NCBI GenBank assembly: GCA_045837725.1
Contig: JBEWZL010000216.1
Span: forward strand, 434,001-489,670
Reading direction: 5' to 3'
Length of the DNA stretch: 55,670 bases
Source of the DNA: Vermamoeba vermiformis
Taxonomy: Eukaryota
Under the pieces are notes generated by a model. The model was not told the DNA's origin. It saw nothing but the letters and a program-made list of their open reading frames with translations, and made no database searches. Both the position numbers and the translations under genes were made by a program. Below are positions 35,401-55,670 of the stretch, piece after piece (the first letter of the stretch is position 1; each line of letters begins with the position of its first letter).

Positions 35401-38400
35401 CCCAAGTTCAGAGAACGTTTCCCTCGCATGAAGGTCCACGAATTGGGCAACTTCTTCGCTCCCTTGTTCCAAGCTGCAAATGCTTACTGGAAAGATCTCC
35501 CTGTCCTTACCAGCTACTTGAATGATGCTTTGGAAAATTTGAAGAAAACCAGCAAGAAGGACGAGGAGGGTTTGTTGATCATTGAACACGACAATCCGAT
35601 CTTCAAGGTGTTTGAGCCTTTGCTCACCTTCAAGCGCCAAGAGCATTGGTCGAAGATTCCTGCTCTCAATGATTACGTCGAAACGATTCTTCACTCTCGT
35701 CAAGCACCTACCGTTCTCAAGCCGTGGATGTACCACCACGAGGTTTCGTTGACCAAGAAGGGAACCAAAGCTCAACGTGCTCAAAAGCGCGATGAAACTG
35801 TCACCAAGTTGCTTTCGATCAGCAAATCGGCATTGCACTTGAAGTTTGTCTGGCATCACTTGTTCGAGAATCGACAGGATCTTCTCGACAAGTACATTAA
35901 CGAAGCTGACCCCAAGACTTACCGCGGTGTGTTCTTTGTCAACCCTGACGATAGACCTTTGTACAAGAAGACTGAAGTCGAGAAGGTTGTTATTCAAGCA
36001 AAGGTTGGAGTCCGTCGAGTACGCGGAGCTGCTACGCCAGTCACGACAGTTATCAAGGGTACTGCAATGCAACAGGCAGTACACAATGTTCGCGAGGTTA
36101 TTGCCAAGCAAAACGATGCCGAAGACAAGATTAAGGATGAAATGTCTCTCAATGGCGATCACCGGGACTTCTACACCTTTGAGGCCTGCTACAAGCTGAA
36201 CAGATTGCTTCCCAGACAGTCACTGACTTTGGCTGCTCAATGGCTTCGTCAGTTGTTGAACGGCGATAGACCAATGCCCGAGCGCATCAAGGCCGCCATC
36301 AGATGGACTTTGTTGCCTACCACTGCTTACTACGATGTCGTCAAGTTCTTGAACGAGTACGAAAAAGAAGATGAAAAGACAAAGCGCCAAGCCTTGCCAG
36401 TCAACTTAATTGAGCCCGTTTTACGTGGTGCCATGTACAACGACGAGCCTAGTGCCGCTTTACGCTGGTTGTTGAGCCCTGAATTCCTTGGCTCTGAACG
36501 TGCTCGTGTTGCGATATACGCCGTTGCTCAGTGCGTGCCTCACTTGCCGGATGACGGCCTTACCAAGATCTGCCGAACTATTTTGACTGGAAAGAACCGC
36601 CATCAGCTCAAGGTTACGGCGTACAAGGAAATCATGCGCTTGTTAACTTCCTCACCAACTACTGAGAACATCGAGATGGTCTTGCACGAATGGAACCGTA
36701 AAGAACTCCACCGCGACGTTGCCATCACCATCATTCAATGTGCTTTTGCCTTCTTGAAGTCTCCGGACGAGAACAAGAATGCTCTCGGTTGGAAGATCCT
36801 TGAATTGACCTTCGAGAAGTATCCCAGCCACTCTGAAATTCTGACAACTTTGTTGGCCACCAAATCCACAAACGCAGAGCAGCATCTTAACGTGGCACCT
36901 GAATACAATGGACAAGAGATGCAACAGCCACGCGTAAAGGAACTCATGGACGATCTTGCCAAGCGCGAAATCCCCAAGAAGCACGTTGTGGACTACATTA
37001 ACAAGGTTATCAAGCGATTGGTTAACCTCGAAACTCTTGATGAAGATGACGATGTGAAGCACTTGGCTCGTGTTAGCTTGTTCTACTGGCGTGAACAGGA
37101 GGGCAAAGAAGGCGTTGAGTACTTCATCCAAAACGCTTTGAAGTTCTTGTCCAACTTCGGCTCTAAGCTCCTAAGAAGCACAAAGGTCGGCGATCAAAAG
37201 GTGTTCTATGCACGCTCGACAACAATGTGGAACTACTTGGCTACTTGCTGTGGTATTAACACCGCATCCAGCACCTACGTTCGTGGCAAAGGAAATGTCG
37301 AACGCACACTGGGAGACCGTGCCTCGTTCATCAAAGCTATCGAAAATTACACAGCGGAAATTGGCCGCTTATCTAAAACCAAGTGCACTGCCGAAGAAAG
37401 CCGCGTTCGTGTTATCTTATTGAACGTGTTCGATTCGGTTTTGACCGATGGAAAGATTTGGCCGACAACCGCCATCCAATCGGGCTTCTTCGATCGTCAG
37501 ACCGAGCTTAAATTGATTGCTCCAATCCAAAAGTAAGTTGCTTCTTTTAGTTCTTACATATACTTACGTTGAGTGCTAGGTTGGGTAACATGTACTGGCT
37601 CGAGACTACCAAGAGAATCTTGAGGGGTCTTCGTCAACAATCGCCCTCTGTTGTGGTTGGTCCTATTCGTGACGCCTTCACTTTCGTTCTTTCGCACCAA
37701 ACCTTCGTGTCGGAAATCGTCAGTGCAATCGGTGAATATGTCAGCACTTCGTACCACTATTGGCAATACAATGAACAGAACGACGTCCACCAAGTCTTGC
37801 GCGAGGTCTTCGCTCCTACTTTTGTCAACACTTCCAATCTCGGTCCTGAAGCCTCCGCTTTGTTGACGATGCTGCGCGTTAAAATGGTTTCCTACGCACC
37901 CAAGTTTGCCGAAGTTGGCGAGGAAAACCTGACGGTCGCTAATTTAATTTATGGCGGCATCAAGCAACTTGCCGAAGTTAAAGCCGTCCTCCCTCCTGAC
38001 TTCGACTTGTTCACCGAGATGCTCAACCTCTTTAACAAGATCTGCACCACGCTCAGCCCTAACGTCTGGAACGGCACTCGTACTTTCACTGCAGAAACTC
38101 AGCAGTTCGTGAAGACTGTGATCGATCAATGTCTGAGTGCTCCTGCAAGTGGCCGCGAGGGTGAACTCGCTCGTGAATTCATTACCCGCGCCTTGACACA
38201 ACACCCGGAGGACTTGGCTTTGACGTACCACGATGTTGCCGATCACAACAGATTGATGTACGCCGTGCTTTTGCACGCAGCTTCACGCGACTTGTCAGCC
38301 AGCACCTTGGAGTCTACCTCAAAGTGCATCGTCGGTTTGGTTAGCGACATCCACTTCTACGTGGACAAGGTGTTCAACAAAAACACTAGACAGCGAACCA

Positions 38401-39008
38401 ACAACGATTTGAACGAGTCTCCCGCGACCGTTGCTGCCCTTAATGCATTCTTGAGCGGAGGAGTCCTCAGCCAAAAGAAGGATGAAATCAACGCCTTAAA
38501 GATTAGCGATGCCATTCAGCTCTTGATCGGCACCACTGGCATTGCACTCCTGAATGAATTCCCTAGCTACTTGTGGATCAATTCAGATGCATCTTTCGCC
38601 TTCATCCGAAACACCCTCTCATTCGGTCAAAAGCACGCTAGTGCCAAGCAACTTACTGCCAACCTCACCGCAGCCTTCAACCGCGCTATGACTTTGTCTT
38701 GGAACACTAAGGAAGATGAAGCTGAGGACGAAGAAGAAGAAAAGCCCAAAGACAAGAAGAAAGAAAAGCACTACGACCTCACTGTGACCGTCGATCTTGT
38801 ACGCCGATTGATGAAGGAAAACAATCACTTGGCTCGCTCGATTGCTTTGCAATTGGTCATCACTGCCTCCTGGGAGACTGCTTCCGGTGATGACAAAGTT
38901 TCTCGTCCCGAACTCGTTGCGTTGTTGGAAGAATTCTACAACGACGCCGACGAGACTTTGCGCGTCACAGCCCTTAAGGTGCAAACTGCTGGCAAGCGAT
39001 TCAAGTAA
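32412..39008 (+). CDS. Large uncharacterised, probably alpha-helical protein of about 2,100 aa
   Basis: ORFs 32412, 32676, 33331 (1401 aa) and 37569 (479 aa) join through four short GT-AG introns and show coding-like composition. No catalytic motif recognised. Confidence 0.8.
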
Positions 39009-42140: not shown

Positions 42141-45100
42141 ATGGCTCGTCCAATTCACTTCGCCTTAGGGCTGATAATATGGGCGATCTCATTATCGACA
42201 TTAGTAGCGGCAACCAGGTAAGTCACAACGCAACTCACGTTCAATTAAGTTATTAACATCGGATCGTTAGCTGTTCGGCAGACTGGGAGTGCCATAAGAA
42301 CGAATACTGCAACAATAAGATATGCACTACGGCAGCAGGAGCGTCAGTAGATTCATTTTATCCATTTGGATTGATCAACGGTACGTTCTCTTAACGAAGA
42401 AAATAGTTTTATTAACAAATGATCAGGCGATAAATCTTTGTACGGCGACGATGGCAAAGCGATAATTACATCAAGCTTTAAGTTTCCGTTTGCTGGCACG
42501 ACATACAGCTACGTGTTTATCAGCAGCAATGGTGTGATTTCATTGGGCACGGACAAAGACGCGCCGTTCAATAACTTGGACCCGCGTGCATTCCCCGTGG
42601 AGAATGCGACCTTGATAGCACCTCTTTGGCTCGATTATGGTAAGTAATGTTATCGCTGTGTCATGGTCACGAGCTGTCATTGACGGACTATCCCTAGACA
42701 ATCGCGAGCCATTGGCTAATGGAGCTAATTCCATATTTTACCGGGTCGAAACGGATCCAGTGATGCTCACTCAAGTAAGCAGTGACATCAATACTGCGTT
42801 CGGAACGACAAGCTTCAGTGCTACTGACGCGGTAATTGCGACATGGTTTAAAGTGGCCAAGTGGAAGCGAAGCACGGACCTGTTGAATACGTTCCAAGTA
42901 GTGCTTGCCACGAGCGGATCCGAGAGTTACGTTATCTTCTTCTACAATCGTAAGTACTTTGAATAGTAATCAGTTCATATACTCATCATCTCGGACAGAC
43001 ATCGGTACGGTGAAGGTTCATGGCCTTTATGCTCGCGCTGGCTTCAACTCTAATTCTGGCGGTGTTACTAGCGCTGACTTCGAGTTGACCGGCAGTGGCA
43101 CTGCGCAAGTGGCCACCTCATTAGAACAATCAACCAACTCCAATACCACTGGCCGCTGGATGTACAAAGTTGATAGCACGAGTATCAAAGATCCCACAGG
43201 TGTCATCGCCACGCCACCTCCAACCCCGGTCGGTCCTTCACCACCCGTGTCCGTGACTACTTCTCGCCGCGATGTCGGTAGTGCACTTACAACCGATGCA
43301 CCCTTCTTCCCCTTTTTGATGGACCACTCGATAACTCCACCCGCAAGCTTGTTGGGACCAATCAGCAAGCCTTATCCGACCAACTCGTGGCACACGAATA
43401 TGTGGCTCAATCAAGGCAACATGCCTATCGTCACAAGCCCATACATCATTGAAGTGCGCAACACGGGAGTTCAAATGAGCTACTCGCCCCGTACATTCCA
43501 AGCCAGTGGTGGATACACGGTTTTCACCGAAAACTTCGCCATGCTGGTGAGCGAAACAATTGCTCAGCGCCGAGTGTTGGACTGGGACCTGTTGAGCGTC
43601 ACATTGATTTGGTCGAACAATCAGCCTACTACTTACGACCCCAACACTATCAATTACGGAACTCGTGCCAGTTCGATGATTGCCCCATTAGTACAAGGCA
43701 GCCCGTACATTACTACCAAGTGGAGTGGTCTCACACCCGTAATCACAACTGCACACGCAATCTTGTCTATCAACGGAGGAACTGGCACTTCATTCACTGG
43801 AACCAAATTCAAGTTTGTGCTGAACAATGGGCAAACTTGGATTTTGTACGCAAGCAATACCATTACATTCACGCTCTCTGGCAGCACTCTTACCGCTACG
43901 AGCACATACGAAGGTGTTCTTCGCGCTGCATGCATGACCGACGCTAGCTTCGAGTCAGTTCTCGATCAGTACAAGAACAGTATTCCCATCGCTTCGAAAG
44001 TTGGCTGGGCCGCCTCTGGCAACACAGCGGTCATCGAGTTCGAATATGTTACTGAAGATGATTCAGATCCACTCATGATGACCCTCCCACATCACCGCGA
44101 TATGATGTCTGGTGTCACCTACGTCATGCCTGAAGCTTACGTGACAATGAAAGGAAAGATGAGCGGATTGGTTGGCAAAACTTGGAAGATGAACGAACAA
44201 CTCACGACGATCACTTGGGGTGCTGCTCGAAGCGTCCCTTCGCAATACACAGACGCAATCCGCGCCGCACTTCAGTCTGACCAAACTTTGACCCAGACTG
44301 CTAGTGACACGTACGCCAGCGGCAAGAACTTGGCGGCTATGGCCCGCCTCATTCTAATTGCAGACGAAATTGGCGAAACCACCATTGCATCGAGCATTCG
44401 CGATCGATTGAAGACTTTGCTCGAGAAATGGTTCAACAGCCAAACTTCAGACACTTTTGTTTACGACAGAACGTGGGGTGGTGTAACTTCTTCGAACAGC
44501 ATCAAGGACAGCGGCCAAGATTATGGTATTGGCAACTACAACGACGTTCACTTCCATTTGGGCTATTTTGTTTACGCAGCAGCGGCAGTGGCCAAGAGTG
44601 ACTCTGCATGGGCTGCAAAGTGGGCTCCAGCAGTCAATGATCTGATTCGTGGCTATGCCAATCCAGTGCACGACACTTACTTCCCAGTCACCCGAATGAA
44701 AGATTGGTTCGTTGGTCACTCTTGGGCCTCTGGTTTATTCGAATTTGGTGACATTAAGAACCAAGAGTCGTCATCAGAGTCAATCAACGCTTATTACGGC
44801 ATGTATCTTTGGGGCCTAGCGACAAACAGCGCAAACTTGCGCGATCTTGGTCGTGTGATGCTCGCGCAAGAGATTCGTTCCACGAAGAAGTACTGGCACA
44901 TGGACAACAAATCAAACGAGATCTACGATCAAGTCTTTGCTGATAATGGCTGCGTGGGCATGGTTTGGGGCATGAAAGTTGATTTCGCCACGTGGTTCGG
45001 TTTGAACATCGAATACATTGTCGGCATTCAAATGATGCCCTTCACTCCGATCTCCGAAGAGTACTTGACCTCCACTTGGATCAACACCGTTTATCCATCG

Positions 45101-45280
45101 CTGTCTACTGCTCTCACGCGCAGCACACCTGTACTTGAAGATGGCTGGAAGGGCTTTATTTTCATGGCACAAGCTGTGTTGGATCGTGCAACCGCGTGGA
45201 CGAATATCAACACACTGTCTAATTGGGATAATGGCAATAGTAAGACGAACGCTTTGTATTGGGTGGCAACACGGCAGTAA
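42141..45280 (+). CDS. Secreted NIDO-domain + GH81 endo-beta-1,3-glucanase
   Basis: Signal peptide, then NIDO motifs (FYPFG, ISSNGVIS, IAPLWLD, NTFQVVLAT, ARAGFN, GRWMYKVD), a Pro/Thr linker, and GH81 motifs (PYPTNSW, PLVQGSPYIT, YNDVHFHLGY, GHSWASGL, NQESSSES). Confidence 0.9.
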
Positions 45281-45843: not shown

Positions 45844-46192
45844 ATGCTTCCAGTTTTGCCCACCGAAATTATAACAAACCAAATATTGCCTCTCACCCCG
45901 ACAGAGTCGCTCTTCGTGTCTCGTCACTACCACAATATTGCCCTGACCTTACTAGCACCAACAGATCCCTGTAAATTTTCTTGCCAATTAACAACATTCA
46001 TTCGTTTTAAGGCTGTGCGATCTGCCTCTGTGCTGCTCTCTCTTCTTGATAGATCCAAGCCTTTCCCACAATGACGCATTTCTTGCAGCAGTCCAGTCAA
46101 AAAATGAAGACCTACTGCGGCAACTCGTCGAACATCCGCGTTTTGATGTTAACAGCATGATACATCAAGACAATCGCCTATCTCAAACACCT
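45844..46192 (+). pseudogene. Truncated and frameshifted F-box-like + ankyrin-like gene
   Basis: LPVLPTEIITNQIL...FVSRHY is F-box-like. After a frameshift near 46048, DPSLSHNDAFLAAVQSKNEDLLRQLVEHPRFDVN is ankyrin-like. The sequence then runs directly into unrelated CpG-poor DNA. Confidence 0.55.
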
Positions 46193-47243
46193 TTAGAATG
46201 TCATATCTGTTTCAAAGTCCTTGTGTTGAACCTGAGCATTGCAATCAACCTGTATATTTGAAATGTGATCAACTGGCTGTTGGGAGTTGTGCTCTAGATG
46301 ATTTAAGCGTTCCATCATGGCCTGTTGTTGAGTCATTATAGTGGACAACATTTTTTGCAAGGAAGCACTGGAGTCCTCAGTAGGAGCAGTGCTTTGGGTT
46401 TTTGTGTGAATCTCTGGAATATTGGTGCTGGTTTCTATTGGGGTTGTGCTGTCAATGCTCACTGATGGCTTGCGTGGAGTAACTTTCTTTTGCTAAACAG
46501 GAATCTCATCAGAGCTACTATTTGAGTCCTCTACTGTCTTGTTAGTATTTGGGCAATGTTTTCGCAGAACCTTTCGCTTCTTCTTTGGAGTATCTTCACT
46601 GTGTGTAGTTGCCTGGCGCTTTCTGGCAGCAGAACGAGTTTCTACATGTGTAGGCTCTTTTGGAGGTTGACTTTGCTTTTGATGTTTGGCAGGTTTGCTA
46701 GCCTTGGGAGTAGGACCAGTTATTTTCTGTTCACACCATTTGTCGAACAGTTGATTAACATAGTGCTTTTCTTGCTCTGTCAAAATGCGATGTACTTTCT
46801 ATTGACAAGTGGTTAGAAACATGGTGATGTGATTGTAAACTTACTGTATACTCTTTCAAATGAAATTCCTTGATTGTTGCTGTCTTCAAGCAGCAAGCAA
46901 CAATGTACTTATTGTGGCCTTCAAATCCCCGCAATATTCCAACAACAATCCACTCTTCATTGTCGCACTTGATTATGTCATCAATGCAATAAGAGAGTAT
47001 GCCCTTGTGATCGAGTACCTCTTCGTACAGTGTTGAGTGGGCAAGGCAAATATCTTGTGAAGCATACCAAGTCAATCCATCAGCTTCAATTTGGATAGGG
47101 TGCTATAATAAACGGCGATATCAATTTGGATTTGATTACAGAAAAACTAAGTGAGAGCATTTGAACACTGATCGTTTGCATTAGCATACCTGATTTGTTT
47201 GCATGTCTGATTTGCCACTTGTTGCTGTGGTGCTCATGGGCAT
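46193..47243 (-). pseudogene. Three-exon CpG-depleted gene with an in-frame premature stop, possibly transposon cargo or accessory gene
   Basis: ATG at 47243. GT-AG introns near 47190-47103 and 46844-46799 join MPMSTT..NQ|HPIQIEADGLTWY..KEYT|KVHRILTEQEK. TAG at 46495-46493 is in frame with the downstream QKKVTPRK...MTF stop. Confidence 0.55.
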
Positions 47244-47649
47244 TGTGGTAGATCTGATCTGAAAAAAAACTCAATAAATTGGTGTTGCATAAACTCACAA
47301 ACGATTGATCTATTAAGAGTTATATGGTTCCCTGGGAAAAACACACTCTGTCGCTCTAATTCTGCCCTGCGCTAACCTCTTCAATGCCCTTTCTTTCACA
47401 CATTTAAAACTTGTGCTATCTCAGAAATATTTTATAAAATTCTCAGAGGATCAAGTGTTTTACGAATACATGTAAGATATTAATTGAACAGTAGGACGAA
47501 ACAAAGTCTGGTTGGTTCGATTTGGATGTGAAAGTAAAAAGTGCAGGAAAAGAAGTGAAAATATGTGGCAGTGCAGAATTATGGAGCAGCAAAAACATTT
47601 TATAGCGACAGGGCACACGTGTTTTTCCAATATAATATTGATATTATTA

Positions 47650-47679
47650 CAGTCGCGGCCAAAAGTATCGCCCCGTCAC
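47650..47679 (+). mobile_element. Possible solo Tc1/mariner-like terminal inverted repeat
   Basis: TA|CAGTCGCGGCCAAAAGTATC resembles the Tc1 end CAGTGCTGGCCAAAAAGATATCC and follows a TA. No partner end or transposase was found in the window. Confidence 0.3.
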
Positions 47680-48175
47680 TTGACGAGGGCCATTACCAGT
47701 TTTGAAGAGGTAGACTATGAAGATATCCTATTGAAAATATATGCCAGCTCTGATAGTATTTTTCATTATATTTGCATAGCTGGCAAACATTGGTGAAGGT
47801 TGTTTTGGTCAAACGAATGTTTCCGAGCCATAAAATCCGCGAAAAGCAGTTTTTGATTTTTAACTGCTTAGAGAGGAGTCCAATCAAACTGCTACTAATA
47901 CATATGGGTAGTACAAGTACCTTGTCAATTCAGAAAAATATGCTGAACACTGGAAGAGGTTAGGTCCTGGAGGAATAAATTGCCGCAAATTAATTCCATT
48001 TGCCGAACCCCATTTCCGCAGTTGTGCCGAAACTTTCGCAAGATTCATATATACTACAGGGCTTGGCCAAACAGGGCTAGCCCTAAAAATTATCCAAAAA
48101 GTTTTGTAAAGTCAACTTTTCTGGCAGTTTTTCAACCAAGAGTTCGACATTGAGCAATTGCACAAGTGTGAGCAA

Positions 48176-48485
48176 GAGTTGTAGAGTGCTAACGAGAGTT
48201 GCTGAGCACTAATGAGAGTCACTGAGTGCTAATGAGAGTCACCGCAAGCTAACAGGAGTCGCTGAGTAGCGAGAGTTGCTGAGCGCTAACAAGTCACCAA
48301 GTGCTAACGAGAGTTGCTGCACACTAATGGGAGTCGCCAAGCGCTAATGGGAGTCGCCGAGCGCTAACGAGAGTTGCCGAGCACTAGTGAGAGTCGCCAA
48401 GCACTAATGAGAGTCACAGAGCACTAACAAGACTAGCCGAGCACTAGCGAGAGTTGCCGAGCACTAACTAGAGTCGCCAAGAGTT
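48176..48485. repeat. 20-bp minisatellite, about 15 copies, consensus GAGTCGCCGAGCGCTAACGA
   Basis: Read directly. Example copies: GAGTCGCCGAGCGCTAACGA, GAGTTGCTGAGCACTAATGA, GAGTCGCCAAGCACTAATGA, GAGTCACTGAGTGCTAATGA. Confidence 0.92.
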
Positions 48486-48608
48486 AATTTGAGTTGAGGG
48501 CTGACAAGAGTAATTACACACCAGAGAGATTAAATGTTGAAAGAGTTTATTCATTTTACAATATAACAAGTTAGAATAAAACAACAACTGTACTGGTAAG
48601 GGCAAAAC

Positions 48609-49128
48609 TATGACCACAATGGTCACAACTGAAATTAAAGTCCTTTACAGTTGTCTCTAGCAGGAAATGATGTAAATTTAAGTCTTTCAAGGTTGTCTCC
48701 ACAGGGAGACGATGTAAAAAAAACAAAGTTTAAAACTTCGTGACCACAGTGGTCACGAGCTAAGAAAATTGATGTCACGTCATTGGAGGTCGTCTCCACG
48801 GGGAGACGATGTCTGAAAAAACTAAGTCCGATAGAGGTCGTCTCCACGAGGAGACGATGTCTAAAAAAACTAAGTCCTACAGAGGTCGTCTCCACAGGGA
48901 GACGATGTTAAAAAAAATTAAAGTCCTGCAAGGCCGATGTAACAAAAAAACTAAGTCCCACTTCGTGACCGCACTGGTCACGAACTAAGAAAAATTAAAG
49001 TCCCTTGAGGTCGTCTCCACAGGGAGACGATGTAAAAAAATTCAAAGTCCCTTGAGGTCGTCTCCACAGGGAGACGATGTAAAAAATTCAAACTCGAAAA
49101 ACTTCGTGACCGCACTGGTCACGAACTA
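48609..49128. repeat. Array of two palindromic hairpin repeats, A (7 copies) and B (4 copies), separated by A-tracts
   Basis: A is TCGTCTCC-ACRR-GGAGACGA, near 48691, 48787, 48834, 48883, 49007 and 49054, with a degenerate copy at 48650. B is TTCGTGACC-(ACAGT/GCACT)-GGTCACGA, near 48737, 48962 and 49103, with a degenerate copy at 48609. Confidence 0.92.
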
Positions 49129-50140
49129 CAACAAAAAACAATCAAAATAACTTACAATTTAGTGGGCAGGCGTGATCTATTGGAGCCATAACTCGTAACT
49201 AGTGACGACACGAGCGAGACTCGTAGTTACAATCATGCCGTCACTACTTGCGATGAGGCTCACTTAACTTACTAAGATTTTACAAGCAAATGGCAGAACG
49301 ATCCGCACTTGAAGCGTTGTCCAAAGACACCACGTTGCCAGAGCTACCTCGTCTTGTTACGAAGCACGACTGTAATTTAAGAATAAATATTATTATCTGT
49401 TGCTACCTTGCGGGTAAATAAAATTAATACGCGTTGTTGTGGTTGTGGTTGCAACGTAAAATAATGGTAACGAACCGAAAAGGAAATCTTGCCATTCAAC
49501 TGACAAATAAGATTTATTCTTTGGATTTTCTGCCGATATTTCCTGTCACGTGTGTGATTTCGCCGTTTGTGCGCAGGGTTCTGCGCTGCGCAGGGCTTAA
49601 CGACCGTTATTTTTGTCATCAAAACGCACCAAACAAGCACGAAAGACAGTTTCATATGTAACAGTGCTCGTGTTTGCACTGGCAATGGTCACCAATTATT
49701 TTACTTCAGCTGATCCAAATCAAAATTAAATCGTTTATCTTGCGCAAAGGTAGCTACCACGATTTCTCTGTAATTATGTTAGTCGCAGCGCACGAGACGG
49801 CATTGCTGTAGCTGCTCGCGTTGCTGATAATTTACCCTCCCGCCCAAATCTGATTTGAAATTTTTGAAAGTCACCGCAGGACATTAACGAATAACCTTTT
49901 TTTTGCTGTTGATTTGCGGGATTTTGACCACGAGTCGCCTTGTGGTGTAATTAATTTTGACAGTTAACACTCGTGCACAGGGTTTATCAAACAGAACGAA
50001 CGGTCTCTCGCGGAGATCGGAGTAAATCTGTTTTTGCAAAGAAATGATGTAATAAACTCAACCACAAAGTGAGGAATTATTTTTTCTTATTTATTTATTC
50101 TAGTTACAATATGCAAGTAACGCGTCACGCAACAGAAGAT

Positions 50141-50297
50141 GTTCAGCACGAGCTATTTTGGCTGTGGAATTGAAAATTAGATGTGAACTTAGATTCGCAT
50201 CAGATCGACCACAAGGGTCGAGTTATTATTATTGTTATTGTTATTATTGATAGTAAACACGCGCCCTGCGACAATCAGCGTCGTTGCAGCGCGAGAC
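50141..50297 (+). repeat. Leader repeat copy 1 (two conserved stem-loops)
   Basis: GTTCAGC..GAG, then AACTTAGATTCGCATCAGATCGACCACAAGGGTCGAGTTA (50186-50225), then CAGCGTCGTTGCAGCGCGAGAC. Confidence 0.9.
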
Positions 50298-51258
50298 AAT
50301 GAACGAGCAAGGATTGCACGAATCTCGGTGCCGAGACCGAGATAATTCAAGGTAATATTTCAAAATATATATAATTCCGTGTGTATAAATATTATATCTT
50401 AATTTCAAAATTTTAATTTTCTGTAAACTAAATTGGATTCGGATGCTCGTATTTTATCCGAATTTTCAAAAAATATCGTTTAGTTAATTGCTATACAATA
50501 CAACTAACAGGTAATTTTTATTACAGATTGCAATATCAATTTTGTGGCGATCGAATGTTATTTAATTTTGATCATTCCTGCGATCACCACCAATGGTCGC
50601 TAAGGGTTATTGAGCGCTATTACGCTCGTGCTTTGGTTGGTTCGCGTGGTGGTCACGGAGAGCTTTCTGGACTTGATGCCGAGACACCACCCCTGTACTT
50701 TGGTTGGTGCTAGTGGTCACAGAGCGCAGTACTTGATCCATGGCCGTGAACCGGATTGCGTTAGACGCATCATTATAGTTGGTAAGTTAGTTTTTAATAA
50801 TATCAATGAATAAGGCGCAAGGAACGCGTCACTTTAAAATTTACCATTACCCTGATACTTTACAATAAATTGTTATGCGGATCGAGCTTCGTGCTCGGGT
50901 AAAATTAAAATTGCTGTTGTTCATTTTATTAAAACAATATATTAACCCTTATTTAATAGGTTATTGGAACAACAGAACTAACACGCGAGTTCTAGATCGA
51001 GAGCGAAATCGATCGCTCGCTGACCGGTCAGTGAATGAAGCGTAAGTAGTTTAAGTATTTTATTTTATTGTTATTTAATATTTTAATTTATTTATGCTTT
51101 AGAAATTCACGATGACGGATCTCGAACGCGATCTTCCCGCGTTGACAACTTCAATACATTGATTGAAATATAGCACCGTAAGTATTCCTAGCGTTAATAT
51201 TGAGCAATATTAACGCGTTATGCAATCAGAAATGGCCCAGGCGTACACCGTGCTGTCC
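50141..51258 (+). ncRNA. Putative spliced non-coding unit 1 (leader + 4 introns, truncated by unit 2)
   Basis: Conserved leader at 50141-50297. Donors at 50352, 50782, 51042 and 51178 with acceptors at 50526, 50959, 51102 and 51229. No credible ORF. Transcription is inferred, not shown. Confidence 0.45.
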
Positions 51259-51398
51259 GTTCAGCGCGAGTTATTTGGATGAAAAGTAGAACTTGGATTC
51301 GCGTCAGATCGACCACAAGGGTCGAGCTATTTATTATTGATATTGTTATAGTTGATATTCAACACACGTCAAGCGATAATCCGCGTCGTTCCAGCGCG
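51259..51398 (+). repeat. Leader repeat copy 2
   Basis: AACTTGGATTCGCGTCAGATCGACCACAAGGGTCGAGCTA (51290-51329), then CCGCGTCGTTCCAGCGCG. Confidence 0.9.
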
Positions 51399-53020
51399 GC
51401 GTTAAGATCTCGCGATCACCTGCACCTAGGCCTTGGAATAGTGATTCGGTAAGTTTTTTTAAATATTAGTAAGTATATATATATATATATTAAAATAATT
51501 GTAGCAAATAGACAATTTCAACTTTTAAATGCAAGAAATTCGAAAATTGATTGTTTCCTAGGATCGAGCTTCGTACTCGAACCAAATTTAAATTTTCGGT
51601 TTTAGACATTTAAATATTCTATATTAATTACAATTATGCAGGTAATTTAAAACGAGTATCGGTTGCGGAGTTACTGGACTGACAATAGCCCAAGACAAAT
51701 ATACGGTAAGATAATCATACTATTACTTTAATGTTATTAAATGATCTAATGCGTTTATTTAAGTATTACAACTTCCTTGGCGATGGCTGATCGTTAACGT
51801 GATCTCGCTGAATAAAGTTCGGTCACACGAGTATTCGGCAAAAGGTAAGTACATCAATAATCAATGATAGTTATTAACTTTTATATTATTAGATTTAATT
51901 AAAACGATCTTTTTACGATGATTGAAAAGCGAGGTACGAGATCTTCGAAGTTTTGATGTAGCGCATAGAACGCTCTAACAGTAAGTATTCCCGTTTTGTA
52001 TCGTTATTACAGTTTGCTGATATTAATATTAACATTGAAAAATAGGTTGCAGTGGGCCTCGCGTCGTACACAGGATCCGACTTTTAAATTATAATTGCGC
52101 GCATCACTCGCGCTTAAAGTAAGTCAAATAGTGTTTTAAATTATTGCATTAAGGTACTAACGTCATTTATTTATTATTAGAGCCGTCTTGGATAAATTTG
52201 TAGATGGATTCGGTGACGAGATCTAGCGCGTTGAAATTTTTAAATGTGCGAACTGATGGATCGAGGTAAGGTAAAAAATCGTTTAACCTATCACGTAATA
52301 ACGTTGTTATAGCCCGATAAGGGTCAGTGTGACCTTTGAGTGCAACAATTCGGATCGACTGCCAGCGGATGTTAAAATTTCGCTGCTGATGGCTTTCAAA
52401 GTAAGTAAGATACAGTCAATAACGCACTTATTACTTATTTTAATATTCTTTTTTTGTTTAGATGGCCTGTTTACGTGACGTGGCTTGGCGTTATATCTCG
52501 GATCAACCCCGACAAAAGTACGGCTGCGAAATACGAATGTGAGTATATATATATATTGCATTACATAATATTTAGAATGTATTAAAATCGTTGTCAATAC
52601 AGAACATTATGGTGGAAGCGAAAGAATGGACACGAGGCACGCGTGATCTGATCGCGCTCAATATTTTATTGGTACGAAGAAAAGGCTGGTAAGTATTGAA
52701 AATAGATCATATTACATACGTACTAACGCGTTATATTATATAGTGGCTCAATCAGTTGACAGTGCGATGAAAAACGATCCGCAACTTGAGCGGATTGATT
52801 CGAGAACATACTTCCAGAGATTATGTAAGTTAATTTATTGGCTCATAATGATGATGTATTTATTAACATATGCTTATATAACCAGAGTCCATTCAATTTA
52901 CTTACTGAATCCTCGCGGATCGAGAATTAACTATTTTTAGAACGCGTCTAGACCTCACGCGAGCAATTTTCAATGTAATAGGTTCAGGCAATAATAAACG
53001 ACTTGTACACAATAAAAGTG
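51259..53020 (+). ncRNA. Putative spliced non-coding unit 2 (leader, 11 exons, 10 introns, polyA signals)
   Basis: GTAAG/GTGAG donors at 51449, 51706, 51845, 51981, 52119, 52266, 52401, 52539, 52689 and 52825. Each is followed by an AT-rich intron with a YTAAY-like branch point and an AG acceptor. AATAAA near 52993 and 53011. The spliced product has no long ORF. Confidence 0.55.
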
Positions 53021-53136
53021 CTCCCCATAAAGAGATCTCTCCGTTATTTTTAAATACTTTGACAGATCGACCAGAAAGGTCGAAATATTATTTAAAAAAT
53101 GTTAAAGCTGACGGTTTCGCACCGGTTTCAACAGCC

Positions 53137-53275
53137 GTTCAGCGAGTTATCTAGATGATAAGTTTATGTAACTTAGATTCGCATCAGATCGACCACAAGG
53201 GTCGAGTTACCGATAGTATTGTTGTTGTGGATAAGCACGCGCCAAACGACATTCAGCGTCGTTCCAGCGCGAGAC
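53137..53275 (+). repeat. Leader repeat copy 3
   Basis: AACTTAGATTCGCATCAGATCGACCACAAGGGTCGAGTTA (53170-53209), identical to copy 1, then CAGCGTCGTTCCAGCGCGAGAC. Confidence 0.9.
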
Positions 53276-55366
53276 TCAATTCAAGATCTTTTGATCCGAC
53301 ATCTTAGCTAGTACGGTCACAAATCAAAGGGTATGTATTTTTAATATTATGCATCGGTATAATATAACAATATTACACCATTAATTTCAATATTCAAATT
53401 GGTGTTAAAGTTTAAAAAAATTAAATTTACGGATCGAGCTTACTGCTCAAGCGAAAATCAAAAGTTTGTTATATTTATTATTAATACATTATTTTAATCG
53501 TAAATTTACAGCCCATTAATCGAAAGGCACTGGCGCACTCGATCAATATTAATAAACGTTCAGCAAATGATTGAGTTAGAATACACGGTAAGTAGTTAAT
53601 ATTATAACATCAATTCGCCGATTTAACTCGGTTTATTTAGGTCTAGAAATCCATCGAGCACGAATCTCAAGCGCGATCTTCACGCGAATAGAATATCGCT
53701 TGGTAGTGTAAGTTTTTTATTTTACTGATACAAGCCGCTTAATATTAGTGTATTATTAGTATAGGCAGCGTCTAATCGAACTTACAGCGGAGAATAATTT
53801 AAACAAAAGTACTTCACGGATATCCGCGATCTCCCAGTATTGTGCGCGTTAAATATCATTTGTAGTAACGCTGTATGGAACGGCAAGTAACTAATTCAAT
53901 GGTAGATGGATCTTAATAACGCTTTATTTGTCAGATCCTATCAAAACCCTTCTATGGCGAGACTTTACGCGGAACGATCCAGCGAGATCGGATTCGAAAA
54001 AATTGAATGGGCTTGTTCAAAGGCGACTCAAGGTAAGCAAATATCGTTTAATATTAACCTTAATATAATATTTCATGCTAATTTTAATTACAGAACTTCG
54101 CTGATGCGATCACGGATCTGGCCGATCTGACCCGCGAGGAAATAACAGTCAGATCGCCAACAAACTCTCGCAGGTAAGCATATCATTATTGTATTGATGA
54201 ATACTAACGCTTTATATTATAATTAGAAATGAGTGAAGGGGTTATTTACGAGAACAGACAAGGATCAAGCACCACCGCTCGAAGACAAATTTTCAACTAG
54301 TTGCGCTTTGATCGGTGCGATACTTGTATTAAGATTAATATATTTATAATGACGTACTAACGTTATTATTAATATTAGTGGAGACGTGCTTGGATATTTA
54401 CATCGACGCGATCTCCATTAAAACGCGAGTTCGAAAACATTTTCCGTGAGCGCATCAATTGCACCAAAGTAAGTAGCATCACTATAAAATTCGTGTATGC
54501 ATTATAATAATATTAATTTATTTACAGAAAACATTGTAGTGTGGACTTAATGCATTAGTGACGCGCGATCTGGCAGCGTGAAAACTTTCAGGCGAACGCG
54601 AGACTAAGGTAAGTGTATCGGTACATTAGTAATGACGGATACTAACCCTTTCATTAGTGAGTGCTCACAGGCGTTGGTTATTTTTGGATGCGTAGCCACG
54701 AATCCAACGATCTGAACACCACAACCAAGTAAGTGCAATTAATTTAATTATAAATTATTATAGTTCAGTTGTTAAATTCATACTTTTGCTCATATTTTAT
54801 TAAGTGTTGGATTCGGATCGATATGTTCTTGTGCGGTAGCCCCGTAAGTACAATCATTTACGCCGAGACTATTACTAATGGATTATTAATAGGTAAAAAA
54901 CTGCTCGCGACAAAGATTCAATGACTCAAAGATGATACAAATCGCAAGGTTAGCGGATGTTCTCGCACGCATCCAGGTAAACACAATACAGCGCATCGAT
55001 TGCACTAAAAGTATGTAACTATCATTTAATATAATAATTATAACGTATTAATGTTTTTAGACTAAGCAGTTGCGTTTTTCAGATCGCGGAACGCAAGATC
55101 TGCCACGAGGAAATTTTGAGATATATTGCGATTGTAAGCAGTGTAAGTTATTATATATAATATAATATCTATTGGCTAATCACTATAAAATTCGTTTATG
55201 TACTATACTAAGATTATTTATATCAACAGAAAAATAGTCAGTGCGGACTTGGTAGAACTGTGCGGCGCAATATATAGTAGCTGGCAGCGGTGAAAACTTG
55301 CAGTCTAACTCGACTGGCTAAGGTAAGTGCATCGTTACATTAATCACGGATACTAACCCCTTCATT
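53137..55366 (+). ncRNA. Putative spliced non-coding unit 3 (leader + 14 introns, the last one truncated)
   Basis: Donors at 53331, 53588, 53708, 53883 (GC), 54033, 54174, 54315 (weak), 54469, 54609, 54729, 54844, 55011, 55143 and 55323. Several introns contain TACTAAC. No long spliced ORF. Confidence 0.55.
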
Positions 55367-55618
55367 TGTGTCGAGTGCTGCGACGATAATGTCCGTGAAC
55401 AAGAAGCAGTAGCGCATCTTGGCACGCACCTTGCTGGCATCGAAGGTGGCAAGGGAGCTCATGCCGTCAATCTCCAACAAGCGCCCTTGACGCACGTAAC
55501 GGCGATGCGGCACTGCAAAGTTGTAGTTGGGATCGAGACCCGACAGCTTGCCCCAGATGAGCAGCGTGTTGTTCAAGTTCTCGGCCTAGCGCTTCTTTTC
55601 ATTCACGTATTCAACCGT
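55367..55618 (-). pseudogene. Isolated RhoGEF (DH end + PH start) coding fragment with an in-frame stop
   Basis: VEYVNEKKR*AENLNNTLLIWGKL...PHRRYVRQGRL...MRYCFLFTDIIVAA is a typical DH-PH junction. It carries an internal TAG and has no splice site at either end. Confidence 0.7.
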
Positions 55619-55670
55619 AACAGGCATGGTTATTTTTGGAACCGGCCAGAGTTTAGTCGCGCAATTAATA

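What the first reader, a model, noticed from the sequence alone, without database searches (positions are those of the whole stretch)
50141..55366. Tandem family of non-coding, hyper-spliced micro-exon units (main candidate for a new system)
Seen: 5.2 kb with no credible ORF but about 28 plus-strand introns. Donors are mostly GTAAG, branch points are YTAAY-like (often TACTAAC), and most introns are 47-90 nt and very AT-rich. They separate CpG-rich internal exons of mostly 65-100 nt. The region divides into three units, each starting with the same leader of about 140-155 nt. Unit 2 ends in AATAAA signals. Homologous exons differ by many substitutions and indels while splice sites stay intact, which a decayed protein gene would not show. 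I saw no clear snoRNA boxes in the introns. Inference: selection acts on splicing, spacing or structure rather than on a protein. Possible roles are a lncRNA family, a splicing-dependent chromatin boundary or centromere-associated transcript beside methylated repeats, a small-RNA precursor, or a non-autonomous element that mimics host genes to avoid silencing.
Basis: partly seen in the sequence, partly recalled or inferred. Interest (0 to 1): 0.92.

Follow-up and report, generated by a model that had tools for sequence, protein, structure and literature searches.

The report
Periodic non-coding exon-intron array
A 5.2-kb stretch of a protist genome carries about 28 textbook short introns spaced every ~138 bases with no protein-coding capacity between them, so it looks like a family of RNA genes kept for being spliced, although no RNA data could be examined.

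Summary
On the + strand of 50141-55370 I placed 28 intron-like segments. 22 start GTAAG, 27 end AG, 24 are 47-87 nt, and AT content is 76%. They separate 24 internal exons of 83±16 nt. A strict intron pattern matches 18 times, against 3 on the other strand and 2.9±1.6 in shuffles. The spliced product has no ORF above about 93 aa and no codon periodicity, and 12 of 28 exons are closed in all frames.

Three units share a leader with an invariant 37-nt core.

New here:
- The array has a coherent ~138-nt period.
- 21 of 24 internal exons carry a mid-exon GATC.
- Introns and splice sites are better kept between paralogs than exons.

Rfam, Pfam, mirtron-like folding, RIP-type mutation and dispersed copies all came back negative.

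Best reading (about 0.5): a tandem family of spliced non-coding transcription units under selection for splicing itself. The locus also abuts a dead gene fragment and repeats, so a decaying relic remains a live rival.

The parts
50141..51229 (+). Unit 1: leader exon, a unit-specific extra intron and 255-nt exon, then the shared long intron, exon A, intron B, exon B and intron C. It runs straight into the unit 2 leader.
51230..53030 (+). Unit 2: leader exon, long intron, nine regularly spaced exon-intron modules and a terminal exon with two AATAAA signals
53100..55370 (+). Unit 3: leader exon, long intron and 13 further modules, including an internal ~700-nt duplication. Its last intron lacks an acceptor, and the unit is cut off at about 55375.
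50186..50222 (+). Leader core, copy 1: 37 nt differing only at two purine (A/G) positions among the three copies, containing the palindrome TCGACC-N5-GGTCGA
51290..51326 (+). Leader core, copy 2
53170..53206 (+). Leader core, copy 3
53063..53084 (+). Extra partial copy of the palindrome: stem kept, loop changed. It lies 122 nt upstream of copy 3.
50279..50293 (+). Second conserved leader block CGTCGTTSCAGCGCG, copy 1 (copies 2 and 3 at 51384-51398 and 53257-53271)
50782..50959 (+). Long intron of unit 1 (178 nt) with the conserved GGATCGAGCTT block at 50879
51449..51641 (+). Long intron of unit 2 (193 nt) with the conserved block at 51561
53331..53511 (+). Long intron of unit 3 (181 nt, donor GTATGT) with the conserved block at 53431
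50352..50526 (+). Unit 1-specific intron (175 nt, weak donor GTAATA, ACTAAC branch, CAG). This is the least certain call.
51042..51102 (+). Intron B of unit 1, 61 nt, GTAAGT..TAG
51178..51229 (+). Intron C of unit 1, 52 nt, GTAAGT..CAG, with an 11-bp inverted repeat (fold z -3.6). Its 3' part (TAACGCGTYAYGCAA) recurs at 50118.
51706..51763 (+). Intron, 58 nt, GTAAGA..AAG
51845..51892 (+). Intron, 48 nt, GTAAGT..TAG
51981..52045 (+). Intron, 65 nt, GTAAGT..TAG
52119..52180 (+). Intron, 62 nt, GTAAGT..ACTAAC..TAG
52266..52312 (+). Intron, 47 nt, GTAAGG..TAG
52401..52461 (+). Intron, 61 nt, GTAAGT..TAG
52539..52602 (+). Intron, 64 nt, GTGAGT..CAG, no YTRAY found
52689..52743 (+). Intron, 55 nt, GTAAGT..TACTAAC..TAG
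52825..52885 (+). Intron, 61 nt, GTAAGT..CAG
52993..53016 (+). Two AATAAA signals (52993 and 53011) in the terminal exon of unit 2
53588..53640 (+). Intron, 53 nt, GTAAGT..TAG
53708..53759 (+). Intron, 52 nt, GTAAGT..TAG
53883..53934 (+). Intron, 52 nt, GC donor (GCAAGT)..CAG
54033..54093 (+). Intron, 61 nt, GTAAGC..CAG
54174..54226 (+). Intron, 53 nt, GTAAGC..TACTAAC..TAG
54326..54378 (+). Intron, 53 nt, weak donor GTATTA..TACTAAC..TAG
54469..54527 (+). Intron, 59 nt, GTAAGT..CAG; duplicated as 55143-55229
54609..54657 (+). Intron, 49 nt, GTAAGT..TACTAAC..TAG; duplicated as 55323-55370 (41 of 46 aligned bases identical)
54729..54804 (+). Intron, 76 nt, GTAAGT..AAG, no YTRAY found
54844..54892 (+). 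Intron, 49 nt, GTAAGT..ACTAAT..TAG
55011..55060 (+). Intron, 50 nt, GTATGT..TAG
55143..55229 (+). Intron, 87 nt, GTAAGT..CAG
55323..55370 (+). Intron remnant: GTAAGT and TACTAAC are kept but the acceptor is lost (TAG became TTG). This is the end of the array.
55382..55627 (-). Context, not part of the family: an 82-codon fragment of a RhoGEF-PH-ArfGAP gene with an in-frame TAG, abutting the truncated end of unit 3

Best explanation
The locus is a tandem family of three paralogous + strand transcription units; the third is internally re-duplicated and truncated. The units are spliced many times and encode no protein.

Each unit body is built from a ~138-nt module. The module is a GC- and CpG-rich exon of about 83 nt, usually with a GATC near its middle, followed by an AT-rich intron of about 58 nt. 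The intron carries this genome's consensus signals (GTAAGT ... YTAAC ... YAG). The modules most likely multiplied by tandem duplication.

Since duplication, the following have been kept: the 37-nt leader core with its TCGACC-N5-GGTCGA palindrome, a second leader block, a block in the long first intron, the splice signals and short introns, and the mid-exon GATC. The exon sequence has drifted almost to randomness. It is therefore an 'inside-out' non-coding gene family whose selected property is dense, efficient splicing, not a mature RNA sequence or a protein.

Shown: the signals, their strand bias, the period, the lack of coding potential, and the conservation pattern.

Inferred: that RNA polymerase II transcribes the units, that the introns are removed, that the palindrome is a promoter or factor-binding element, and that the effect works through splicing itself. 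That effect could be loading of spliceosomes or exon-junction complexes, or keeping the transcript and locus clear of the silencing that seems to act on the CpG-depleted repeats just upstream.
For: Intron signals:
- A strict intron pattern matches 18 times on the + strand, 3 times on the - strand, and 2.9 +/- 1.6 times in 300 shuffles.
- Intron lengths (median 58.5 nt) match the 44-62-nt GTAAGT..CTAAC..YAG introns that split the coding ORFs elsewhere in the window.

No coding capacity:
- The 3.2-kb spliced product has 48-62 stops per frame and a longest open stretch of 93 aa.
- Period-3 signal is 1.0-3.3, against 10.5-29.7 in four real ORFs.
- 12 of 28 exons are closed in all three frames.
- None of 8 unspliced ORFs hits Pfam.

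Conservation pattern:
- Paralog identity is 67-74% for leaders, 60-61% for the long intron, 41-67% for short introns and 39-60% for exons. All 9 homologous introns keep GTAAG/GTATG and YAG.
- In the younger duplicate, introns are 84% and 89% identical, and the exon is 73% identical with 12 gap columns.
- Exons carry no positional information beyond the splice signals.

Period and motifs:
- The GC spectrum peaks at 137.6 nt, at 16 times mean power across the whole array. Donor-to-donor spacings in unit 2 are 139, 136, 138, 147, 135, 138, 150 and 136.
- 21 of 24 internal exons hold a GATC (shuffles: mean 6.4, max 14 of 1000), at a median of 36 nt from the exon start.
- CGYGATCT occurs 7 times on the + strand mid-exon and once in reverse.
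- AATAAA occurs twice at the end of unit 2.
Against: - No RNA evidence at all.
- No second locus or relative was found. The leader motif gave 0 hits in metagenome and viral contigs and one chance hit in a bacterial MAG. There were 0 hits among 1.84 billion protein representatives for the leader ORF, and no similarity to the rest of the window. Conservation therefore rests on three old paralogs in one genome.
- The neighbourhood looks like a decaying region: a dead gene fragment cuts off unit 3, repeats lie upstream, and the last intron has lost its acceptor.
- Exons have somewhat more open frames than shuffled exons (21 against 14.9 +/- 2.8). This could be a faint coding vestige.
- AT-rich introns align better than GC-richer exons partly because of low complexity.
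- Three donors are weak (GTAATA, GTATTA, GCAAGT).
Confidence: 0.5

Rival explanations
1. Decayed pseudogene family. A lineage-specific protein gene with one short repeat per exon (like genes with one leucine-rich repeat per exon) was duplicated in tandem and then died. The regular exon-intron period is a fossil of the repeat structure.
For: - The ~138-nt period is regular.
- A CGYGATCT motif is shared by 7 of 24 internal exons.
- Open frames per exon are in mild excess (21 against 14.9 +/- 2.8).
- The locus lies beside a dead gene fragment and repeats.
- Unit 3 is truncated.
Against: - Splice signals should decay at the neutral rate. Instead they survive in all 9 homologous introns, while exons are 39-60% identical.
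- Introns are better kept than the exon in the young duplicate.
- There is no period-3 signal.
- Exon lengths vary from 64 to 99 nt with no multiple-of-3 pattern.
- There are no Pfam hits, and no peptide repeat among exons apart from the nucleotide-level motif.
- Intron density, about 9 per kb of exon, is far above that of the neighbouring genes.
Confidence: 0.2
2. A DNA-level periodic element, such as a diverged 138-bp satellite, a chromatin-phasing array or transposon debris. Its AT-rich halves resemble introns, but it is not transcribed or spliced. The GATC and CpG motifs would be the functional or mutational signature.
For: - The 137.6-nt period is coherent.
- The palindromes GATC and CGCG are enriched (GATC o/e 3.1, CGCG 6.8) and CATG is depleted (o/e 0.12).
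- The bare GATC flanks are used about equally in both orientations (CGATCT 8, AGATCG 8).
- The array is adjacent to tandem and hairpin repeats and to a CpG-depleted block.
Against: - The strand bias of complete intron patterns is strong, 18 against 3.
- The signals and lengths are exactly those of this genome's real introns.
- Tandem Repeats Finder reports no 138-nt array, and the monomers share no sequence outside the splice signals. Concerted evolution therefore cannot explain why only the splice signals persist.
- The longer CGYGATCT motif is strand-specific, 7 against 1.
Confidence: 0.12
3. A host or precursor gene for small RNAs: snoRNAs, mirtrons, or siRNAs made from the spliced or unspliced transcript.
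For: - The architecture, with conserved introns and drifting exons, is that of snoRNA host genes.
- The long first intron holds a conserved block.
- Long introns fold with z from -1.3 to -3.0.
Against: - Rfam gives no match at gathering score and only chance-level matches at E up to 5.
- 24 of 28 introns are 47-87 nt, too short for a snoRNA.
- There is no excess folding in introns (mean z -0.35, n=28) or in exons (-0.25, n=24).
- The intronic block loses its stem in units 2 and 3 without compensation.
- An siRNA-precursor role is not testable here.
Confidence: 0.08
4. A tandemly duplicated coding gene wrecked by repeat-induced point mutation (RIP-like C-to-T hypermutation). This would hit GC-richer exons harder than AT-rich introns.
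For: - Region-wide RIP indices are borderline positive: TpA/ApT is 0.93 and (CpA+TpG)/(ApC+GpT) is 0.96, against 0.75 and 1.20 in the rest of the window.
- GC is 36% against 44%, and CpG o/e is raised.
- The sequence is duplicated.
Against: - Differences between copies are not transition-biased. Counts are 32 transitions to 32-43 transversions in the leaders and 19 to 37 in the young duplicate.
- Exon-only indices are 0.69 and 1.09, which do not meet the recalled cut-offs (TpA/ApT 0.89 or more; (CpA+TpG)/(ApC+GpT) 1.03 or less).
- No RIP machinery or fungal affinity is evident; the best named relatives of two window proteins are plants and algae at 31-45% identity.
Confidence: 0.05
5. A protein-coding gene read by an unusual code, editing or frameshifting.
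For: None beyond the presence of introns.
Against: - Neighbouring genes have long open frames in the standard code.
- There are 48-62 stops per frame and no period-3 signal.
Confidence: 0.02

Closest known systems
Non-coding snoRNA host genes
   Same: Multi-exon spliced transcript without an ORF, in which exons drift and intronic parts and splice sites are kept.
   Different: The introns here are 47-87 nt and hold no snoRNA. The modules are periodic (138 nt), and the exons carry a GATC motif.
Intron-containing heterochromatic or regulatory lncRNAs of fission yeast (PMC5322907, PMC11696164, PMC7229227; only title and start of abstract seen in the search listing)
   Same: Non-coding transcripts whose introns, not their exons, carry the activity, next to repeats.
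   Different: Those cases rely on one or a few cryptic, poorly spliced introns that recruit silencing factors. Here there are about 28 near-consensus introns, which suggests efficient splicing. No RNAi or heterochromatin data exist for this organism.
Evenly spaced splice-donor array in a non-coding gap of Naegleria gruberi
   Same: A row of regularly spaced GTAAGT donors in ORF-free DNA beside a dead gene fragment, with transcription untested.
   Different: That case has seven donors in 2.9 kb. Here there are 28 full introns, three paralogous units with a conserved leader, and a measured period. No sequence similarity was found.
Introner elements
   Same: Many similar short introns gained in a burst, with a link to chromatin periodicity.
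   Different: Introners are dispersed near-identical copies inside coding genes. These introns sit in one non-coding array, share only the splice signals, and have no look-alikes in the other 50 kb.
Protein genes with one repeat per exon (for example leucine-rich-repeat receptor genes with 72-nt exons; recalled)
   Same: A regular exon-plus-intron period produced by tandem exon duplication.
   Different: There is no ORF, no period-3 signal, no shared peptide motif, and exon lengths are not multiples of three.

Membership tests
Spliced long non-coding RNA gene | Transcribed and spliced at the predicted junctions | not testable with these tools
   RNA runs of the same species label exist (X5-X7).
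Spliced long non-coding RNA gene | No protein-coding capacity in the spliced product | tested here: met
   48-62 stops per frame, longest open stretch 93 aa. Period-3 signal 1.0-3.3 against 10.5-29.7 in real ORFs. No Pfam hit for 8 unspliced ORFs. The spliced product itself could not be sent to a database.
snoRNA host gene | Introns encode box C/D or H/ACA snoRNAs | tested here: not met
   0 Rfam matches at gathering score. Only sub-threshold matches at E up to 5. 24 of 28 introns are 47-87 nt.
snoRNA host gene | Exons poorly conserved relative to introns | tested here: met
   Exons are 39-60% identical against 60-67% for most introns. In the young duplicate the exon is 73% identical against 84-89% for the introns.
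Mirtron cluster | Short introns fold into pre-miRNA-like hairpins | tested here: not met
   Mean fold z-score is -0.35 over 28 introns. Only 51178-51229 (z -3.6) and 54326-54378 (z -2.8) among the short introns fold well.
Pseudogene of a known protein family | Residual similarity to a protein family or to a coding paralog | tested here: inconclusive
   No Pfam hit for unspliced ORFs. No similarity to the rest of the window. No repeat at peptide level. A database search with the spliced product was not possible.
RIP-mutated repeat | Copies differ mainly by C-to-T and G-to-A transitions | tested here: not met
   Transitions to transversions are about 1 to 1.1 in leaders and 19 to 37 in the young duplicate.
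RIP-mutated repeat | High TpA/ApT and low (CpA+TpG)/(ApC+GpT) | tested here: inconclusive
   Region: 0.93 and 0.96. Exons alone: 0.69 and 1.09. Rest of window: 0.75 and 1.20.
Introner elements | Dispersed near-identical intron copies in many genes | tested here: not met
   No blastn match of the array to the other 50 kb at E up to 0.1. A genome-wide test was impossible because no genome is held.
Satellite / tandem repeat | Head-to-tail monomers alike in sequence | tested here: not met
   Tandem Repeats Finder reports no array with a period near 138. Exons carry about 0-0.3 bits of positional information. Only a compositional period of 137.6 nt is present.
Spliced-leader RNA gene array | Short units of one mini-exon plus one intron half, matching SL RNA models | tested here: not met
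   Units are 1.1-2.3 kb with 4 to 14 introns. No Rfam SL RNA match.

The most novel reading that the evidence does not exclude
A 'splicing array'. This would be a non-coding locus built by tandem amplification of a 138-nt exon-intron module, each exon marked by a central GATC. It would be maintained because dense co-transcriptional spliceosome assembly is itself the product. Possible uses are insulating against, or counteracting, the silencing that acts on the neighbouring CpG-depleted repeats, or titrating splicing factors. If similar donor arrays in other protists (the Naegleria note) turn out to be the same thing, this would be a previously undescribed class of eukaryotic non-coding gene. 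It would also be a live example of intron multiplication by tandem duplication.
Probability: 0.25. Interest if true: 0.85.

Novelty: new variant of a known kind. Interest (0 to 1): 0.62.

Why it matters
In a genome whose genes carry about one short intron per kilobase, this locus packs about 28 consensus introns into 5.2 kb of sequence that cannot encode protein. It keeps the introns better than the exons. If it is transcribed, it is a natural case of selection for splicing uncoupled from any coding constraint.

Such a case would help to study:
- what defines an exon under intron definition;
- how introns multiply by tandem duplication;
- whether splicing itself can be a gene's function.

The strict 138-nt period and the one-GATC-per-exon rule are concrete, testable handles. 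If the locus is only a relic, it still shows how slowly strong splice signals decay in such genomes.

Tried and rejected
RNA evidence:
- The look-up of sequencing runs listed no RNA holder, only three unindexed RNA runs of the same species label.
No expression data were obtained.

Whole genome: none is held.

Known RNA and protein families:
- tRNA: none.
- Rfam: 0 matches at gathering score and 6 chance-level matches at E up to 5.
- Pfam: 0 families at E up to 1 for the 8 in-array ORFs, and only weak matches (E about 0.15) for an ORF just upstream; 9 ORFs were scanned.

Copies elsewhere:
- Leader motif: 0 in metagenome contigs, 0 in viral contigs, and 1 chance hit in an Acidobacteriota MAG, about what chance predicts for 596 Gb.
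- Synteny through the GH81 gene: 10 loci, all too short or without the signature. The best, L005, reaches 4.6 kb downstream.
- Leader ORF against 1.84 billion protein representatives: 0 hits.
- Earlier findings by sequence and by place: nothing.

Structure:
- The hairpins are 6 bp, invariant and without covariation, with z from -1.1 to -2.9.
- Introns and exons show no excess folding.

Other readings rejected:
- RIP, rejected on the transition-to-transversion ratio.
- GATC as a general exonic splicing enhancer, rejected because exon flanks of 21 ordinary intron-like sites hold 3.2 GATC per kb against 4.9 overall.
- A small leader peptide, rejected because unit 2 is frameshifted and unit 1 lacks an ATG in that frame (reading).
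- Peptide-level repeats among exons: only nucleotide-level paralogy and the CGYGATCT motif.

Taxonomy: two protein searches gave no close named relative.

Literature: searches for hyperspliced or intron-dense non-coding loci, host genes with conserved splice sites, and Naegleria lncRNAs found no description of such an array.

Full report
SETTING. The window is eukaryotic. It has long standard-code ORFs: a GH81 glucanase at 42902-45280, an ERCC6-type helicase, pyruvate kinase, and a 1403-aa ORF with no Pfam family. These are split by short introns of about 44-62 nt with GTAAGT, a CTAAC-type branch site and YAG. Named relatives of two of its proteins are no closer than 31-45% identity, and they are plants and algae, so I can only call it a protist without close named kin. 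No whole genome is held.

- On the + strand between 50352 and 55370 I placed 28 intron-like segments.
- 22 begin GTAAG (18 GTAAGT). 15 end TAG, 10 CAG and 2 AAG, and one has lost its acceptor.
- 25 have a YTRAY motif 5-45 nt from the 3' end. 24 are 47-87 nt long and four are 175-193 nt. Their AT content is 76%.
- They separate 24 internal exons of 83 +/- 16 nt.
- A strict pattern for a compact intron matches 18 times on the + strand of the region and 3 times on the - strand. It matches 2.9 +/- 1.6 times (max 10) in 300 dinucleotide-preserving shuffles, and 40 and 42 times on the two strands of the other 50 kb.
- The region also stands out by composition. GC is 36%, CpG o/e is 1.73 against 1.07, and CpA+TpG is low.

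NO PROTEIN.
- Splicing at these sites gives 3.2 kb with 48-62 stops in each frame and no open stretch above 93 aa.
- 12 of 28 exons are closed in all three frames.
- The period-3 signal is 1.0-3.3, against 10.5-29.7 for four real ORFs of the window.
- None of the 8 longest unspliced ORFs within the array hits Pfam even at E = 1; a ninth, just upstream at 49377-49688, has only weak matches at E about 0.15.
- One contrary point: exons have a mild excess of open frames over shuffled exons (21 against 14.9 +/- 2.8).

FAMILY STRUCTURE.
- Three units share a leader. A 37-nt core, which differs only at two purine (A/G) positions among the three copies, lies at 50186, 51290 and 53170. It holds the palindrome TCGACC-N5-GGTCGA. 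A fourth, partial copy lies at 53063.
- A second block, CGTCGTTSCAGCGCG, follows about 60 nt later. The long first intron of each unit holds GGATCGAGCTT.
- Homology between units covers only the 5' 500-600 nt: leader, long intron, two exons and two or three short introns. Unit 3 contains a younger internal duplication of about 700 nt.
- Each leader is preceded by an acceptor-like site. The 3' part of the intron before the unit 2 leader recurs before the unit 1 leader. The 'leader' may therefore be an internal exon, and units 1 and 2 may be one transcript.

WHAT IS CONSERVED.
- Between the old paralogs, leaders are 67-74% identical, the long intron 60-61%, short introns 41-67% and exons only 39-60%, which is close to what unrelated sequence gives. 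Even so, all nine homologous introns keep GTAAG or GTATG and YAG.
- In the younger duplicate, the two introns are 84% and 89% identical. The exon between them is 73% identical with 12 gap columns.
- Aligned on their splice sites, the 23 short-intron modules carry information only at the donor, branch/pyrimidine and acceptor positions.
- This is the pattern expected if splicing, and not exon content, has been under selection. It is not the pattern expected of a neutrally decaying pseudogene.

NEW FEATURES.
- First, the array is periodic. The GC spectrum of the whole 5.2 kb peaks at 137.6 nt with 16 times the mean power. Donor-to-donor distances in unit 2 are 139, 136, 138, 147, 135, 138, 150 and 136 nt. 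The 21 spacings under 200 nt average 142 +/- 16. Tandem Repeats Finder sees no array of that period, so the period is one of architecture, not of sequence.
- Second, GATC is over-represented three- to four-fold. It occurs in 21 of 24 internal exons (shuffles: mean 6.4, max 14 of 1000), at a median of 36 nt from the exon start. A longer form, CGYGATCT, is present mid-exon seven times on the + strand and once in reverse.
- GATC is not enriched beside ordinary intron-like sites of the window (3.2 against 4.9 per kb), so it is not a general splicing enhancer here. CATG is depleted (2 copies, o/e 0.12). I have no tested explanation for these motifs. They may be what remains of a common ancestral module, or a bound or modified site.

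READINGS EXCLUDED OR WEAKENED.
- snoRNA or other known RNA families: no Rfam match.
- Mirtrons or structured exons: mean fold z is -0.35 and -0.25.
- The conserved hairpins are 6 bp and invariant, without covariation. The intronic one loses pairing in two units. They read better as sequence motifs, for example factor-binding palindromes.
- RIP-type hypermutation: the region-wide indices are borderline, but differences between copies are not transition-biased.
- Introner-type or other dispersed repeats: there is no similarity to the other 50 kb. Nothing was found in metagenome or viral contigs, in the protein representatives, or in earlier notes of this scan by sequence. The one match in a bacterial MAG is what chance predicts.

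CONTEXT THAT CUTS THE OTHER WAY.
- Unit 3 ends abruptly at about 55375, where its duplicated last intron has lost the acceptor.
- Directly beyond, on the other strand, lie 82 codons that match residues 299-380 of a 1013-aa RhoGEF-PH-ArfGAP protein at 93% identity. They carry an in-frame TAG and show no homology on either side. This is a dead gene fragment.
- Upstream lie 20/60-nt tandem repeats, 47-48-nt hairpin repeats and a CpG-depleted block (o/e 0.3-0.85 over 46.0-48.7 kb).
- The array therefore sits in a rearranged, repeat-rich neighbourhood. A relic cannot be dismissed.

MOST LIKELY MECHANISM (confidence about 0.5). The locus is a tandem family of RNA polymerase II units that are spliced about every 138 nt and encode nothing. 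They were built by tandem duplication of an exon-intron module and are kept for efficient splicing. The activity would then lie in splicing itself or in the leader and intronic motifs, not in the mature RNA.
- Shown: the signals, strand bias, period, non-coding nature and conservation pattern.
- Inferred: transcription, intron removal, promoter function of the palindrome, and any downstream effect.

COMPARISON WITH KNOWN SYSTEMS.
- The closest known logic is that of non-coding snoRNA host genes (recalled). The defining snoRNAs are absent, so this locus is not a member.
- Fission-yeast lncRNAs act through cryptic introns (PMC5322907, PMC11696164, PMC7229227; only the listing with title and start of abstract was seen). 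Those use few, weak introns, whereas these are many and near-consensus.
- An earlier, unchecked note of this scan describes evenly spaced donors beside a dead actin fragment in Naegleria gruberi (e1-635933). I did not test it, and it is a lead only.
- Three literature searches found no description of a periodic non-coding intron array. Supplementary files were not consulted.

WHAT IS MISSING. The decisive test, laying the species' RNA-seq reads on the locus, could not be run. Whether the predicted junctions are used therefore remains open.

Noticed in passing
window 55382-55627 (- strand): An 82-codon fragment of a RhoGEF-PH-ArfGAP gene. It is 93% identical to residues 299-380 of P0165 and 88% identical to P0166. 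It has an in-frame TAG where the relatives have Glu, and no homology on either side. It is a dead gene fragment abutting the array.
   Followed up: yes
window 48184-48478 and 48632-49092: Two repeat arrays about 1 kb upstream of unit 1. One has a 20/60-nt tandem repeat (unit like CTAACGAGAGTCGCCGAGCA). The other has 47-48-nt repeats, each with a perfect hairpin (GTCGTCTCC-ACRG-GGAGACGA), interspersed with CGTGACC-N4-GGTCACG palindromes. The loop motif CCACRRKGG is shared with the leader palindrome of the array.
   Followed up: partly
window 46000-48700: A CpG-depleted block (o/e 0.30-0.85, with high CpA+TpG of 1.03-1.48), in contrast to about 1.0-1.2 elsewhere and 1.6-2.2 in the array. It covers a minus-strand gene (46193-47240) with no Pfam family. 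It may be a methylated region.
   Followed up: partly
window 50113-50135 and 51178-51229: The 52-nt intron before the unit 2 leader contains an 11-bp perfect inverted repeat (fold z -3.6). Its donor and 3' part recur fused into a 23-nt relic before the unit 1 leader, so the array probably once extended further upstream.
   Followed up: partly
window 50527-50781: A unit 1-specific 255-nt exon with an internal 67-nt direct repeat (50628 and 50695). It carries TGGTCAC motifs like those of the upstream hairpin repeats.
   Followed up: no
window 33325-39008 (+ strand): Two adjacent very long ORFs (1403 and 485 aa). The 1403-aa ORF had no Pfam domain; the 485-aa ORF was not scanned. Probably one large gene of unknown function.
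   Followed up: no
window 42902-45280 (+ strand): A GH81 endo-1,3-beta-glucanase with a weak nidogen-like (NIDO) N-terminal match. Relatives at 64-81% identity occur only in unnamed metagenome and NCBI records. Named relatives are at or below 40%.
   Followed up: partly
L011 4033-4053: The single exact match of the degenerate leader motif in 596 Gb of prokaryote genomes, in an Acidobacteriota MAG. About one hit is expected by chance, so it is not related.
   Followed up: no
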